Source of the DNA: Octopus vulgaris
Lineage: Eukaryota
Length of the DNA: 64,000 bases
Direction: 5' to 3'
NCBI GenBank assembly: GCA_951406725.2
Contig: OX597819.1
Span: 57,350,001-57,414,000, forward strand
Both the position numbers and the translations under genes were made by a program. Of this stretch, positions 2,953 through 60,017 are shown piece by piece. Within the stretch, counting starts at the first letter, position 1. Every line of letters starts with the position of its first letter. Below the pieces are notes generated by a model. The model was not told the DNA's origin and searched no databases. It worked only from the letters and a program-made list of their open reading frames with translations.

Positions 2953-3089
2953 GATTCCTCACACTGATGAGGATGACAAAGCATAAACTTGATTATAATT
3001 ACTATCATAATTATAATTATATTATAATTATCAAATTATTTTTCTAACATATTTGCATTGTTTTTCGAAACGTACGTATGCATTGAATC
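2953..3089 (+). ncRNA. Type I hammerhead ribozyme motif with about 95-nt stem II, decayed stem I
   Basis: CTGATGA 2964-2970, GAAA 3067-3070, palindromic stem III ACGTACGT, GTA triplet (cleavage after 3078). Stem I is CA/TG plus GATTC/GAATC. AATAAA lies about 20 nt downstream. Confidence 0.6.
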
Positions 3090-3732
3090 CAGTTTTGTAA
3101 TAAATCTATTTCTGATTCTACATTTTTCGACATTTTTAATGCTTGTTTATGTTATATATGTATACCTATAACGAAACTGCTCAAATATTAATTTCATATT
3201 CTTATTTTTTGCTCTGGCTGATTTTTATGAATATTATGAATCTTAGAAATCATTTTTCTGTTTTTTTGAATCCCCCCCAAAGTTTGAATTGTTCTTTTTT
3301 GAACTCATTTTTTCTTATATATATATATATATATATATATATATATATATATATATACGGTGGTGCCCTTGCATCACCGCAGCTTTGAAGCTGAATATAT
3401 TTAAAGATTTTAAAGATTTAAGGATTTATATATATATATATATATATATATATATATATATATGCATACACACACACACACACACACACACACACACACA
3501 CACACACACACACACACACACACACACACAAGTATGTATATATATATAAGGTAGAAAGTATGGTGAGTGATTACACGTGGTTTAATATATACGGAAAGAA
3601 ATAAGATGAAAAACACAGATTTGTTTTACAAGACTAAACAATATATTGGAATAATAATAGTAAAAGTATTATACAGTGTGGTAGAAAACAAATTCTTTTC
3701 TTCCTACATAATAACCGGGAAGAAATATCTTA

Positions 3733-4810
3733 GTTTGTACTATATTGCATAATGCTTTTATTATTACGATTCTAATATATTCTTTAGTTTAGTGACTTTC
3801 ATCTTGTTTCTTTCCGTACATATATACATATATATATATACAAATATTTGTATGTATACACACACACACACACACACACGCATATATATATATATATATA
3901 TATATAATGCGACTGGCTTAGATTTCCCTTGGCGGGCTGCCCAGATTGGAGCAATCTCAAGATTAATCAGCCGAAATTGCGAAGATGATCTGGTTCTTGA
4001 CTGATGACTGAGATTTTCGAAAGTCCCGTCTGTGTGTTTTTTTGTCGTCTTCAAAATGTTTCACGTTCTTGTCCCAGTTTGTGTTGTTTTAACGTTTACA
4101 TTTTTTAACGTTTACATATATTACACGGCGGCTACGTATCCTACCTTTTGACCCTATACTGTAAGTATATTACTCTCTAACATTGGTACGACTCGACTTC
4201 ACTGTCTCTTTCCCCCCTCCCTCTCCTACTTTTCTCTGCCTTCACCCTTTGCACTCCCCTTGTTCTGTCTCTTTCCCTCTTTTTCTTCTCCTCCCTTGTT
4301 CCCCTTCTTTCTTTCTCTCTTCCTCCGTCCCTCCTCTCCCACATTTCTCTGCCTCTCAGACCTTATACCCCACTTGACCTGTCCCTTTCCCTCTCTTGCT
4401 TCTCTCTTCATCTGTCCCTTTCTCCTTTTTGTGCTCACGTGACCAGCTAGCTACTAATGCCTTTTCGCATCAAGTAGTTGGCGTGACCACACGTATGTGT
4501 TTGTGCTCCGTTTGCCTTCAGGCACTTGTTCCACAGCCAGCCTATACTCAACTCGTCCTGTCGAAAGACGCTTGTCCTGACGTCCTGGTTTTGTTATTAT
4601 TGTCTTTACGTTATTTTGTATTTTTATCCGTGCTATCGTTTGTACTATATTGCATAATGCTTTTATTATTACGATTCTAATATATTCTTTAGTTTAGTGA
4701 CTTTCATCTTGTTTCTTTCCGTACATATATATAAAGATACATATGTATATATATATATATATATACAAATATTTGTATGTATGCACACACACACACACAC
4801 TTGCATATAT
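3733..4810 (+). repeat. About 170-bp direct repeat (3733-3900 and 4639-4810) ending in (TA)/(CA) tracts, with a diverged inverted copy at about 3585-3690
   Basis: TTTGTACTATATTGCATAATGCTTTTATTATTACGATTC...CTTTCCGTACATATAT occurs twice. TACGGAAAGAAATAAGATGAAA at about 3590 is its reverse complement. Confidence 0.8.
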
Positions 4811-4977
4811 ATATAGATTTTGTTGAATTTTCTGCTGCTTAAAATAAAGTATATATATATATATATATATATATATATATATATATATATATATATATAT
4901 ATATATATATATGTATGTATATATACATATATATATTTACATATATATATGTTCTCTCTCCATTTTTTTCTCAACCA

Positions 4978-5100
4978 CTTTATGTCGAAGAGCATAGACT
5001 CGAAACGTCAACGATTTTCCATTTTTCCCGAGCGTGAAACTAATACACTTGCGTATATTTACCCTACCTGTCTGCTTTTTAAAGTGAATTTGAACTGTAT
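4978..5100 (+). mobile_element. Penelope-LTR-like fragment with degenerate minimal HHR
   Basis: GAG CATAGA CTC GAAACGTC matches the HHR stem II/GAAA/GUC half, but the CTGANGA box is degenerate (TGTCGAA). A related tail occurs at 20120-20185 (-). Confidence 0.4.
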
Positions 5101-6474
5101 ATACGTATATTTATAGAAATTACGGGTATACTCACATGAACACACACATACACACACATCATATACAGACATAATTTATGCTCAAGTTGCATGAAGCCTG
5201 TTCTCTTCCATAATATATCAAAATAGGAGAATTCTTGAATGTTTGAGATATCCTCCGCTTCTTATATAAAGCTCGGTTTCAATGCAATTTGGTGATTATA
5301 ACGCATTTCCAAGAATTTACGCCGCTTCGTACTTGATATACCTTTATTTTGCGATACCATATACATTATAAACACTGCGCATCGTGATTTATTTCTCTGA
5401 TGATTTTTGTTTAAATTATACACATTGCACAGTGGGTTCTAAGCGGGTGCGGTACTTTTTGCATAGATCCCTTGAATATGGTGATAAGCCTGAGCGCTTG
5501 TCGTGCTGATGTTACCTATTGAGGCAGTAACACACGTCCACTATTGTCCTCCTATCTCCAGACTATAGGCCTCTCTTTGTCAGTAATGGCATATCAACTT
5601 TAAAGAACTCTTGGTTCTCAAGATTATCTCCTCTTCCCATATAATGCTCGACTTAATTTCCATTTCGTAATTTTGACACTTCAACTAGAGGCGGAAATAA
5701 TTTCAATAAATCAGGAATTTATGATAAATGGTATCTGATATACCAGCATTTGTCTAAGACATGATGCCTCCATCGATTCTAAATATTTTAGCATACAAAT
5801 GCACACATATATGCGCAAGGATGCATGCACGTATATATGCAAATACACACTTACACTCACATAACCTCTCATATATATATATATATATATATATATACAC
5901 ATATAAATCTACGAACAAAATGTCTTCCGTTATATGTTTCGGTTCATTACGTCCTGAGTTGAAATTTCGCTGTGGTCAGCATAGCCATTGATCCTTCCGA
6001 TGTCCATAATGTAGAATCGGTTGCATCTGCTGTTGATCTCTGTCAATATAAAATGAGATAACATATTATAACAGAGTCCGAATCCCGACCAAGTTTAGGT
6101 CTCGGAAGAGATGTTAAATGACCCACCAGCTGGAATACACTGCTGTAACGAAAATATAACTTATCTGTAATAACTTATAGTACACCTTACGTCTGAGCAG
6201 CAGCTGCGGCATCAATGACAAGGGCAACTTAAAGAATGAAGACGACAAATTAATTGTTAGGGGAAACACCACATGCAGAGAGTCTTCTGTTGGAATTCCA
6301 GCAGAAGCAATGCAGTATTTTTCGAACTCTCTCAACGACAGGAAGGCACATCTCACGGAAGCAGGATAGATTTAAGGAGGACAGCAACAACCCGTAAGAT
6401 GATTGCCCCTGGGTGCCGCTTTCATTTATTGGGAAGTTTGTTAGTTAGAATGTGTCATTGTTTTTCTATTGTTT

Positions 6475-58141: not shown

Positions 58142-58655
58142 AGCCAGAACGGAACGGATATTTTCACGAGGCATTTCCGTCCCTGCCTCGGCAATATCTG
58201 ACCTAAAATTTTCAAATCATCGCACTCGCGCCAAATTTATCGGCAGCAAATAAATATAAGCCGCCGATTCCATTACGGAATCAACCAGAAAATTCATAAT
58301 TAATCAATATAGGGTGGCAATGTTATTTTGCGGTTAAAGCTTTGGCTGTTATTTCTAGTGGGTGAATGGCCTATTATGGCCGTTCCTTGATTGTGATGTT
58401 GAACTTATAAATGGTCTATGACTATTTAATTTTTCCCACTAGGCCGCTGGCGGCAAAAAATTCTACAAAATTTTTTTTGCCACCCTATATTGATTAATTA
58501 TGAATTTTCTGGTTGATTCCGTAATGGAATCGGCGGCTTATATTTATTTGCTGCCGATAAATTTGGCGCGAGTGCGATGATTTGAAAATTTTAGGTCAGA
58601 TATTGCCGAGGCAGGGACGGAAATGCCTCGTGAAAATATCTGTTCCGTTCTGGCT

Positions 58656-58762
58656 ATTTCTTACTGAGGAATCTAAGGGCCTATGGAAGATTGGCTTGAT
58701 TTAATTTAATCAGGTTAGTTTACCATTAAACAGTAGATGAAACGGTGCATCGTATAAGAAAT
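58656..58762 (+). ncRNA. Type I hammerhead ribozyme with long stem II
   Basis: Stem I ATTTCTTA/TAAGAAAT (8 bp), CTGAGGA 58664-58670, stem II ATCTA/TAGAT, GAAA 58739-58742, stem III ACGGTGCATCGT, GTA site (cleavage after 58754). Confidence 0.9.
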
Positions 58763-59142
58763 TACAGGGTAAATGTTTTTTTAATTTTCTCCTGGTTTAC
58801 GGAATTAATGTTATTTTGCGGTTAAAGCTTTGGCTGTTATTTCTAGTGGGTGAATGGCCTATTATGGCCGTTCCTTGATTGTGATGTTGAACTTATAAAT
58901 GGTCTATGACTATTTAATTTTTTCCCACTAGGCCGCTGGTGGCAAAAAAATTCTACAAAATTTTTGCCACCCTATATTGATTAATTATGAATTTTCTGGT
59001 TGATTCCGTAATGGAATCGGCGGCTTATATTTATTTGCTGCCGATAAATTTGGCGCGAGTGCGATGATTTGAAAATTTTAGGTCAGATATTGCCGAGGCA
59101 GGGACGGAAATGCCTCGTGAAAATATCTGTTCCGTTCTGTCT

Positions 59143-59249
59143 ATTTCTTACTGAGGAATCTAAGGGCCTATGGAAGATTGGCTTGATTTAATTTAATCAG
59201 GTTAGTTTACCATTAAACAGTAGATGAAACGGTGCATCGTATAAGAAAT
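59143..59249 (+). ncRNA. Type I hammerhead ribozyme (second tandem copy)
   Basis: Same as 58656-58762. Cleavage after 59241, 487 nt downstream of the first site. Confidence 0.9.
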
Positions 59250-59418
59250 TACAGGGTAAATGTTTTTTTAATTTTCTCCTGGTTTACGGAATTAATGTTA
59301 TTTTGCGGTTAAAGCTTTGGCTGTTATTTCTAGTGGGTGAATGGCCTATTATGGCCGTTCCTTGATTGTGATATATATATATATATATATATATATATAT
59401 ATATATATATATATATAT

Positions 59419-60017
59419 ATAACTAATGTAGGATAACATTTCTTTTTCGGGAAAAAATTTTTTATCAATGGCCAGCATATTAAAAAATACCTTTAAAGTT
59501 TTAATTTATAAATAATTTACAAAATAAGTGCAAAAGAAAAATTCCAATGCCAAATATACCGAAAAAAAGACAAAAATTGTCAATAACCATTATAATTTAT
59601 GCGTCTCGAAACAAACCGATAGAAATTTCTAAAAAAATCATTTATTACCGTATTGGTCCCAATTTCGGGGTTAATTCATAAGAATTTTCCCCTCTTCAGC
59701 GATAAAAACGTGAGATATAAGTGAAATACTTACTCATACCCATGGAAAAAGCAAGTACTAAGTCACGAGCAGACCTAAGTACCCCAAATATATCCAAAAT
59801 AGAAAATCTTCGACACATCTCGAGACACGTGTGATTCGAACTAGAAACTTTCACACAGTGAGAGAATCCGGAAGTGAACACTATTAAGTTTATAACTAAT
59901 GTATGATCAAAAATTTTTTCGGGAAAAATTTTTTATCAATGGCCAGCATATCAAAAAATACCTTTAAAGGTTAAATTTATAAATAATTTACAAAATAAGG
60001 GCAAGAGAAAAATTCCA
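59419..60017 (-). mobile_element. Retrozyme/pLTR-like element: about 1.27 units, period 473 bp, (TA)n on both flanks
   Basis: 59419-59546 is repeated at 59892-60017, with an HHR in between. Confidence 0.85.
59645..59705 (-). ncRNA. Type I hammerhead ribozyme
   Basis: Minus TTATCG-CTGAAGA-GGGG aa AATTC ttat GAATT aa CCCC-GAAA-TTGGGACCAA-TA-CGGTAA, running into AATAAA. Confidence 0.88.

What the first reader, a model, noticed from the sequence alone, without database searches (positions are those of the whole stretch)
2953..59705. Shared atypical HHR architecture: very long stem II, palindromic stem III, non-G-C closing pairs
Seen: the stem II region is about 95 nt (2971-3066), 50 nt (23141-23191), 46 nt (45425-45470), 80 nt (51935-52014), 68 nt (58671-58738) and 26 nt (59667-59692). 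Stem III is self-complementary in nearly all (ACGTACGT, ACATATGT, ACGGTGCATCGT, ACTATGCATTGT, ATTGGGACCAAT, ACGT). Pair 10.1-11.1 is A-U, G-U or A.C in several. Known: PLE/retrozyme HHRs usually have a short stem II and cleave as dimers through a palindromic stem III. Inference: this is an expanded-stem-II class that standard descriptors would miss, and cleavage may need two tandem copies, acting as a multimer sensor. About ten motifs in 64 kb implies a very high genomic load if the window is typical.
Basis: partly seen in the sequence, partly recalled or inferred. Interest (0 to 1): 0.75.

Follow-up and report, generated by a model that had tools for sequence, protein, structure and literature searches.

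The report
Long-armed hammerheads in Penelope-type mobile repeats
Eight intact hammerhead self-cutting RNA motifs with an unusually long second arm, missed by Rfam and by a published search pattern, sit in short protein-free repeats of an invertebrate-like animal genome that likely hitch-hike on Penelope retrotransposons and are predicted to cut best when two copies pair, which makes them a new variant of a known system rather than a new class.

Summary
The motifs are real. Eight type I hammerheads with intact cores occur in 64 kb against a shuffled mean of 0.35, but they come from five insertions of four repeat families. Stem II spans 26-96 nt: 3-5 bp, an internal loop or bulge, then a distal hairpin. 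Helix III is palindromic or nearly so in all five. The closing pair is G-C at three of the six loci named, and the 51935 motif has a broken core. Rfam (0 of 4 loci) and the published minimal-hammerhead descriptor (0 of 8) miss them. They lie in non-coding elements that end in (TA)n with Penelope-like signatures; three are 1.06-2.2 copies of a 432-488-nt unit, retrozyme-like. Dimer folding is predicted 12-17 kcal/mol better than two monomers, and a linked GC-to-AT variant keeps the palindrome. Against strict dimer dependence: only one of five insertions has two same-strand copies, and the 12-nt helices can form a monomer hairpin. Palindromic dimer cleavage and non-G-C closing pairs are published, and long stem II also occurs in a minority of phage hammerheads. 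No cleavage or expression was shown. New variant of a known kind.

The parts
2950..3092 (+). Type I hammerhead, intact core (C3 at 2964), 96-nt AT-rich stem II, 8-nt palindromic helix III, predicted cut after 3078; stem I only 2 contiguous bp, likely decayed
2012..3316 (+). Element E3: older insertion with a 194-nt inverted 5' piece (86% identical) and a 3' end running into (TA)n about 240 nt after the cut site; boundaries approximate
20230..23322 (.). Element E20-23: two head-to-head arms of about 1480 nt (98.2% identical), no Pfam hit, both 3' ends pointing outward into (TA)n, the right arm with a roughly 70-nt extra tail
20273..20350 (-). Type I hammerhead (C3 at 20346), 51-nt stem II, predicted cut at 20277; mirror copy of 23134
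23130..23207 (+). Type I hammerhead (C3 at 23134), 51-nt stem II, A.C at 10.1-11.1 (or an extra A plus G-C with a bulged C), 8-nt palindromic helix III, predicted cut after 23203
45129..45697 (+). Element E45: 1.3 copies of a 432-nt unit (duplicated part 91.7% identical), 39-nt inverted piece at the 5' junction, 3' end in (TA)n; homologous to E58 (63% over 513 columns)
45411..45493 (+). Type I hammerhead (C3 at 45418), 46-nt stem II, G.U closing pair, 12-nt near-palindromic helix III with a U.U mismatch, predicted cut after 45486
45644..45677 (+). Hairpin about 20 nt before the shared 3' end of the E45/E58 family, with one compensatory and three one-sided changes between the two lineages; candidate reverse-transcription start signal (inferred)
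51928..52018 (+). Hammerhead-like relic: 80-nt hairpin followed by GAAA, but 5' core with two mismatches, no adjoining stem I, no palindromic helix III
57806..59372 (.). Element E58: minus-strand 1.06-mer (515 nt) joined head-to-head to a plus-strand 2.2-mer (1054 nt) of a 487-488-nt unit, copies 98.6% identical, (TA)n at both outer ends
58035..58141 (-). Type I hammerhead (C3 at 58133), 68-nt stem II, predicted cut at 58043
58656..58762 (+). Type I hammerhead (C3 at 58664): 8-bp stem I, 68-nt stem II (5 bp, 7x7 loop, 18-bp distal arm), A-U closing pair, 12-nt palindromic helix III, predicted cut after 58754
59143..59249 (+). Second same-strand tandem copy (C3 at 59151), predicted cut after 59241; predicted to pair with the 58664 copy through helix III
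59422..60015 (-). Element E59: 1.26 copies of a 473-nt unit (duplicated part 90.7% identical), 3' end in the (TA)n tract shared with E58
59645..59705 (-). Type I hammerhead (C3 at 59699), 26-nt stem II, G-C closing pair, 12-nt helix III with central G.A, predicted cut at 59651

Best explanation
These are type I hammerhead motifs with a long stem II arm inside protein-free repeats that end in (TA)n tracts; the repeats are likely retrozyme-type passengers of Penelope-like retrotransposons, whose multimeric RNA is predicted to self-cut mainly as a double hammerhead paired through the palindromic helix III. Steps: (1) shown in sequence: intact cores, three helices, more-than-unit copies of a 432-488-nt unit in three insertions, inverted 3'-outward layout, (TA)n targets. 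(2) Predicted: two copies in one RNA form an inter-copy helix III and cut, releasing a monomer. (3) Inferred from the retrozyme literature: the monomer is ligated to a circle. (4) Inferred: a Penelope-type RT-endonuclease nicks (TA)n, starts at a fixed hairpin about 210-240 nt downstream of the cut site and copies the template for more than one turn, giving 1.06- to 2.2-mers. (5) Inferred: the long arm is a tolerated hairpin inserted in loop II, kept base-paired but free in length and sequence, and not a new catalytic architecture.
For: 8 vs 0.35 shuffled. E45 and E58 differ in stems I, II and III yet keep the pairing. In 4 of 4 public runs the E58 unit is a many-variant repeat (4838, 15919, 623, 174 contigs laid); among the 40 substitution rows shown (32 more hidden) the only core position is N7; A58675G and T58734C, partners in stem II, rise and fall together across runs (14/22%, 33/42%, 0.4/5%, 32/37%); A58687T closes an A.A mismatch in the arm; G58747A and C58748T have equal depth in 2 runs and nearly equal in a third and keep helix III palindromic. 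The central 4-mer of helix III is a palindrome in 3 of 4 families (P about 0.002). Double-hammerhead fold 11.8-17.3 kcal/mol below two monomer folds for 5 of 5 motifs; in the natural tandem 58645-59270 the inter-copy helix III has predicted probability 0.92-1.0 and the intra-copy hairpin 0.0. Circular E58 monomer folds strongly (z -6.0). Inverted copy, optional tail and microsatellite bias are PLE signatures (Craig et al. passages); internal RT initiation at a stem-loop into AT-rich DNA is shown for an Anolis PLE (PMC11167929).
Against: No cleavage, expression or circle was shown. Only 1 of 5 insertions carries two same-strand hammerheads. For the 12-nt helices of E58 and E59 the monomer fold costs only 3.1 and 2.3 kcal/mol over the free minimum, and coral and mussel hammerheads with shorter helix III cleave as monomers (PMC7229834). 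No PLE reverse transcriptase or GIY-YIG hit among 118 window reading frames, so the helper is not identified. E3 and E20-23 show no unit repeat and fit truncated PLE ends as well as circles. The reverse strand of the E58 monomer also folds (z -5.3), and the E45 unit only weakly (z -1.8). Phase of the stem II variants is not shown; T58738C (32% in one run) and T58719C break pairs unless partners are among the hidden rows. The GC-to-AT change is one inherited event and could arise by DNA palindrome correction. Eight of nine Xenopus dimer constructs did not cleave in vitro (preprint 2026.07.22.740005).
Confidence: 0.68

Rival explanations
1. The motifs cleave well as monomers; the 8-12-nt helix III is simply a stable hairpin and its palindromy is inherited from dimer-type ancestors.
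For: Monomer-constrained folds of E58, E59 and E23 cost only 2.3-4.3 kcal/mol; 4 of 5 insertions have no same-strand partner; most invertebrate type I hammerheads are reported to cleave as monomers (PMC7761336 passage).
Against: Isolated helix III hairpins have about 0 kcal/mol against -6.7 to -17.5 for the duplex; palindromic loop centres in 3 of 4 families; linked GC-to-AT variant.
Confidence: 0.25
2. All or most copies are 3'-terminal pseudo-LTR fragments of autonomous Penelope-like elements; no small circular RNA exists, and the partial duplications come from read-through of partial tandems.
For: E3 and E20-23 have the inverted layout and tail but no unit repeat; PLE copies are often 5'-truncated, and uncleaved RNA was the dominant insertion substrate in vitro for the Anolis PLE.
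Against: E45, E58 and E59 are head-to-tail copies of 432-488-nt units with no room for an ORF between repeats and no Pfam hit in the frames tested.
Confidence: 0.3
3. The ribozymes are dead or nearly so; the long arms are neutral AT-rich fold-back expansions in decaying repeats.
For: E3 has a 2-bp stem I and an 11.6 kcal/mol folding penalty; 51935 has a broken core; arms of E45 and E23 fold no better than shuffles (z -0.5, -1.4); duplicated ends of E45 and E59 differ by 8-9%, so E45's G.U and U.U may be decay.
Against: E58 is young (98.6%), its core is invariant except N7 among the listed variants in four runs, and its arm folds at z -4.6.
Confidence: 0.15
4. The long arm is a functional module: its internal loop docks on the stem I flank as a pseudoknot, or it binds the helper RT or a host protein and gates cleavage.
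For: All five intact motifs place an internal loop or bulge 3-5 bp from the core; extended helix I with an internal loop making loop-loop pairs is published for toad and termite type III motifs (PMC7936874 passage); the Anolis PLE hammerhead cut only with protein added.
Against: The 4-bp flank/loop complementarity in E58 and E45 is at chance level (P 0.19-0.31); arm length and sequence differ between homologues.
Confidence: 0.12

Closest known systems
Metazoan non-LTR retrozymes (Cervera and de la Pena 2020, PMC7229834; Li, Clavereau and Pollet 2026 preprint 10.64898/2026.07.22.740005)
   Same: Non-coding repeat units of a few hundred nt, GC below 50%, one type I hammerhead per unit, head-to-tail copies, strongly folding predicted circle (E58), proposed mobilisation by PLEs.
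   Different: Units of 432-488 nt (reported 150-450 bp in the first paper, 51-972 bp consensus in the second); stem II domain 26-96 nt instead of a 4-bp stem with a small loop; copies mostly 1.06-1.3-mers with PLE-type inversions in (TA)n rather than long arrays; expression and circles not shown here.
[quoted passage not shown] 2017, known to me only through a review passage)
   Same: Type I topology, palindromic helix III and dimer model, no clear loop I-loop II contact, many unrelated families per genome, insertion layout with inverted copy and tail.
   Different: Those have helix III of 0-2 bp and helix II of up to 7-8 bp with a loop of at most 10 nt in the descriptor, usually an extra base after A9 and G10.1-C11.1; here helix III is 8-12 nt, stem II 26-96 nt, and no PLE ORF lies beside them.
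Repeat-type dimeric hammerheads of newt, axolotl and Aedes (PMC7229834; PMC3088659 Fig. S8 legend)
   Same: Weak monomer helix III whose palindromic loop pairs in a dimer (a 10-bp dimer stem is described for Aedes); a non-G-C base of helix II is known (U.U in axolotl HHR_Amex2).
   Different: Short helix II with conserved tertiary loops in the amphibian motifs; no long arm reported in the passages I read.
Phage hammerheads with extended stem II
   Same: 4-bp stem II followed by an internal loop or bulge and a distal hairpin, 26-53 nt in all.
   Different: A small minority there (15 loci against more than 131 short ones for the same pattern), with long ordinary hairpin helix III and G-C closing by construction of the pattern.

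Membership tests
Type I hammerhead ribozyme | Core CUGANGA, GAAA, UH at a three-way junction with open helix I | tested here: met
   8 positions; not met for 51928
Type I hammerhead ribozyme | Helices kept by covariation | tested here: met
   E45 vs E58 and run variants; few independent lineages, phase not shown
Type I hammerhead ribozyme | Match to an Rfam hammerhead model | tested here: not met
   no hammerhead family at E<=10 in 4 of 4 loci; a limit of the models, not of the core
Type I hammerhead ribozyme | Loop I-loop II tertiary contact | tested here: inconclusive
   4-bp complementarity at chance level; non-canonical contacts not testable
Type I hammerhead ribozyme | Self-cleavage at N17 | not testable with these tools
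   only contigs were available
Metazoan non-LTR retrozyme | Short non-coding, low-GC unit with one type I hammerhead, repeated head to tail | tested here: met
   E58 two full units; E45 and E59 1.3 units; no Pfam hit near them; not met for E3 and E20-23
Metazoan non-LTR retrozyme | [quoted passage not shown] 2026) | tested here: met
   met by 1 of 5 insertions only (E58)
Metazoan non-LTR retrozyme | High copy number in the genome | tested here: inconclusive
   174-15919 variant contigs per run on one 487-nt unit; depth is not a copy number and no genome is held
Metazoan non-LTR retrozyme | Expressed as unit-length linear and circular RNA | not testable with these tools
   no listed holder is on record as RNA; contigs cannot show ends or circles
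Penelope-like element (autonomous) | ORF with RT and GIY-YIG endonuclease | tested here: not met
   0 such hits among 118 reading frames of the window tested against Pfam
Penelope-like element (autonomous) | Inverted 5'-joined copy, tail on one end, microsatellite target | tested here: met
   E20-23 and E58 fully; E3 and E45 with short inverted pieces; (TA)n at the 3' end of all five
PLE minimal hammerhead (min-HHR) | Stem II 3-7 bp with loop 3-10 nt and GAAANNUH | tested here: not met
   0 of 8 (descriptor from PMC4209133 Fig. S7; re-implemented)

The most novel reading that the evidence does not exclude
This genome carries several unrelated, very abundant retrozyme families invisible to current searches, whose 12-nt palindromic helix III is long enough for two separate RNAs from dispersed single-ribozyme copies to pair in trans, so that cutting and circle formation respond to the concentration of the family's RNA rather than to tandem arrangement; their 1.06- to 2.2-unit copies with Penelope-type inversions and a fixed start hairpin would be direct genomic footprints of a Penelope RT copying a circular RNA, and the long arm would be its docking site.
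Probability: 0.17. Interest if true: 0.72.

Novelty: new variant of a known kind. Interest (0 to 1): 0.45.

Why it matters
Hammerhead censuses of animal genomes rest on descriptors with short loop II; here every intact-core motif of the window escapes Rfam (where tested) and the published minimal descriptor, so counts for this lineage are likely far too low (5 insertions in 64 kb is 25-182 per Mb if typical, though the window was chosen for them). The young E58 element joins retrozyme anatomy with Penelope insertion signatures in one object, which makes the standing hypothesis that PLEs mobilise animal retrozymes through circles testable, and it offers a natural monomer/dimer pair with a 12-nt palindrome for kinetics.

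Tried and rejected
Whole-window Rfam scan: only microsatellite-driven microRNA matches among the 150 of 194 rows shown. No whole genome is held, so the genome-wide descriptor search was not possible. No RNA holder listed for the E58 unit; run X13 is only guessed to be RNA, so its cover says nothing on expression; head-to-tail joints fall in the part that is duplicated even in 1.3-mers, so they do not show full tandems or circles. Family-specific pattern scans: 5 viral hits are coding-looking chance matches; 29 metagenome hits match only the 18-22-nt pattern itself. No homology between E59 and E45 beyond AT-rich noise. Loop I-loop II pseudoknot at chance level. A covariance model was not built (alignment over the size limit; only two lineages). 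Protein search of a window retrotransposon fragment did not name the host: named hits were Clytia, Penaeus, Asterias and Holothuria; my impression of an octopus genome rests on recall of its microsatellite landscape and is unverified. The Perreault descriptors were not found in the 11 supplement files searched, so I cannot say whether they would detect these motifs. Look-ups of earlier scan notes by sequence and place returned nothing.

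
Full report
Setting. The window is AT-rich (GC 0.28-0.42 per 2 kb), full of (TA)n, (TATG)n, (ATT)n and (TCTA)n tracts, and holds only transposon remnants among 118 reading frames tested against Pfam (114 frames of at least 68 codons plus 4 shorter ones near the elements, out of 213 of at least 55 codons that passed a low-complexity filter). One fragment has relatives in marine invertebrate retrotransposons. 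It is an animal genome, probably an invertebrate; that it looks like an octopus is my recall and comes from no call. No whole genome is held.

Observation. Of 32 CUGANGA sites listed on both strands, 8 complete a type I hammerhead when stem II may span up to 130 nt: 2964+, 20346-, 23134+, 45418+, 58133-, 58664+, 59151+, 59699-. One hundred shuffles in 500-nt blocks give a mean of 0.35 (maximum 3); with stem I of at least 4 bp the count is 7 against 0.08; with stem II limited to 20 nt it is 0. The 8 motifs are not independent: self-comparison shows five insertions in four families.

Anatomy of the ribozymes. Each stem II is 3-5 pairs next to the core, then an internal loop or bulge, then a distal hairpin; folding against shuffles is strong for E58 (z -4.6), moderate for E59 (-2.6) and E3 (-2.0), and unremarkable for E23 (-1.4) and E45 (-0.5). 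E45 and E58 are homologous (63% over 513 columns); their stems I, II and III differ in sequence yet pair, while the arm differs in length (46 vs 68 nt). All six closing pairs keep a purine at 10.1 and a pyrimidine at 11.1. The A-U of E58 is the family majority (U at 11.1 in 95-98% of depth in three runs, 68% in the fourth). The G.U of E45 may be decay, as its duplicated ends differ by 8%. The A.C of E23 can also be read as the extra base after A9 that is typical of PLE motifs (PMC4209133) followed by G-C and a bulged C. Non-G-C closure is published: U.U in PMC3088659 and in axolotl HHR_Amex2 (PMC7229834).

Detection. Rfam gave no hammerhead family at E<=10 in 4 of 4 loci scanned as 301-nt stretches. 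The published minimal descriptor (stem II 3-7 bp, loop 2 3-10 nt, GAAANNUH; supplement passage) gives 0 hits; with the helix III region widened to 2-12 nt it gives 0, 1, 4 and 7 hits at loop limits of 10, 20, 50 and 100 nt. Whether other groups' descriptors would find them I could not check. Long stem II is not unique to this genome: one stem pattern finds 15 viral loci with 26-53-nt stem II, of which 8 fold as type I and 4 (one sequence) as type III, against more than 131 short ones; a second pattern gives 11 long loci, none convincing, against more than 133 short ones. What is unusual here is that the long form is the rule in four unrelated families.

The elements. All five end, on the ribozyme's sense strand, in (TA)n. 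E58 is a 515-nt minus-strand copy joined head-to-head to a 1054-nt plus-strand copy of a 487-488-nt unit (1.06 and 2.2 units, 98.6% identical). E45 is 1.3 units of 432 nt with a 39-nt inverted piece at its 5' junction; E59 is 1.26 units of 473 nt. E20-23 is a 3.1-kb palindrome (arms 98.2% identical over 1484 columns) with a hammerhead near each outer end and a roughly 70-nt tail on one side; E3 has a 194-nt inverted piece (86%). E45 and the minus copy of E58 end at the same place, about 20 nt after a hairpin with 96% paired cells, one compensatory and three one-sided changes (two lineages only, structure taken from the sequences). Four 3' ends lie about 210-240 nt past the cut site (E3, E45, E58 minus, E59); three others lie 47, 119 and 131 nt past it. 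Inverted copy, one-sided tail and microsatellite bias are described for PLEs (Craig et al., passages), as is internal initiation at a stem-loop into AT-rich DNA (PMC11167929, parts 1-2 of 4). The copies run through the cut site intact and exceed unit length, so the template was a ligated circle or an uncut multimer; more-than-unit copying of a circle was proposed in PMC4209133. The circular E58 monomer folds at z -6.0, its reverse strand at -5.3, E59 at -2.9, E45 at -1.8.

Variation in public runs. Twenty of 24 listed runs hold the stretch, under four organism labels; none is on record as RNA. Four were laid on one unit: 4838, 15919, 623 and 174 contigs, which marks a diverse, abundant repeat but gives no copy number. 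Among the 40 substitution rows shown (32 hidden), the only core position is N7. Stem II partners A58675G and T58734C vary together across runs; A58735G makes a wobble; A58687T closes a mismatch. Against: T58738C and T58719C break pairs unless partners are hidden, and phase is not shown. In helix III the two listed changes, G58747A and C58748T, have identical depth in two runs and nearly identical depth in a third; together they keep the palindrome (duplex -13.6 vs -17.5 kcal/mol), while G-to-A alone would drop it to -7.1. These bases are loop in a monomer and paired only in a dimer. It is a single inherited event and could also come from DNA-level palindrome correction.

Monomer or dimer. Isolated helix III hairpins are at about 0 kcal/mol, duplexes at -6.7 to -17.5. 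Double-hammerhead folds lie 11.8-17.3 kcal/mol below two monomer folds in 5 of 5 motifs, and the central 4-mer is palindromic in 3 of 4 families (P about 0.002). In the natural tandem the inter-copy helix III is already in the minimum-energy fold with probability 0.92-1.0. But the monomer fold costs only 2-4 kcal/mol for E58, E59 and E23, coral and mussel motifs cleave as monomers, and only E58 has two same-strand copies. So dimer cleavage is likely preferred, not shown to be required. The idea itself, including control of multimers versus monomeric circles, is stated in PMC4209133, and palindromic stem III with a 10-bp dimer stem in the legend of PMC3088659 Fig. S8. A pseudoknot between the stem I flank and the stem II internal loop is possible in E58 and E45 but at chance level.

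Literature seen. PMC4209133: parts 1-2 of 4 and passages of one of two supplement files. PMC7229834: parts 2-3 of 6, Discussion and passages; its supplement could not be read and may show invertebrate motifs with long helix II. Preprint 2026.07.22.740005: parts 1-3 of 5 (35 genomes: 31 vertebrates, 3 insects, 1 coral; supplements not seen). PMC11167929: parts 1-2 of 4. PMC3088659: passages and section 8. Passages only: Craig et al. preprint, PMC13725137 (viral type I helix II of 6-8 bp called slightly longer than usual), PMC6765202, PMC6155905, PMC10085705, PMC7761336, PMC7936874, PMC13282606 (Octopus vulgaris repeat annotation: Penelope-like elements recently active, no occurrence of hammerhead, ribozyme or retrozyme in the main text). 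Lunse et al. 2017 and Arkhipova et al. 2017 were not available and may describe long variants. Ten searches returned no report of animal hammerheads with 26-96-nt stem II or of cephalopod retrozymes; the library lacks most subscription papers.

Verdict. Real hammerheads in retrozyme-like and PLE-end-like repeats. It works like the known PLE/retrozyme system; E58 meets the sequence criteria of a non-LTR retrozyme, and none meets those of a PLE minimal hammerhead or an autonomous PLE. The new parts are the long arm as the rule, the 8-12-nt palindrome, and retrozyme units with PLE insertion signatures. New variant of a known kind; interest 0.45.

Noticed in passing
window 52744-52776 (+) and 16257-16289 (-): Two classic short-stem-II PLE-type minimal hammerheads with the same core variant U4C (CCGACGA, extra A, 4-bp stem II, GAAACGTT) in copies of one repeat that are 79% identical; shuffled mean 0.02. 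The strict published descriptor misses them because of U4C.
   Followed up: partly
window 4975-5012 (+): A more decayed minimal hammerhead-like motif ending in GAAACGTC.
   Followed up: no
window 20916 (+) and 22562 (-): Inside the arms of E20-23, a CUGAUGA followed by an 8-bp hairpin but no GAAA; on the opposite strand a GACGAAAC lies about 35 nt away. Possibly a second, broken or rearranged ribozyme.
   Followed up: no
window 59373-59421: Two unrelated hammerhead elements (E58 and E59) meet 3' end to 3' end in one (TA)n tract, which suggests repeated use of the same target.
   Followed up: partly
window 47130-48279 (+): Frameshifted non-LTR retrotransposon fragment with relatives in marine invertebrates.
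   Followed up: partly
window 9789-10430 (-), 38288-38827 (-), 56756-57346 (+): Transposase-like remnants; Pfam Transposase_1 and HTH hits for the first only, the other two judged by eye.
   Followed up: no
window 515-757, 6897-7083, 11316-12524, 29589-29773, 41224-42476, 61669-61913: An abundant 110-400-nt dispersed repeat family (64-87% identity), SINE-like by size.
   Followed up: no
window 18295-18466 and 27464-27858 / 52189-52583: A short inverted-repeat element with a microsatellite centre, and a 400-nt repeat whose second copy begins right after the 51935 relic.
   Followed up: no
L035, L037-L041, L043, L045-L049: Phage hammerheads with 26-53-nt stem II, including a type III form with a branched 53-nt arm in four contigs.
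   Followed up: partly
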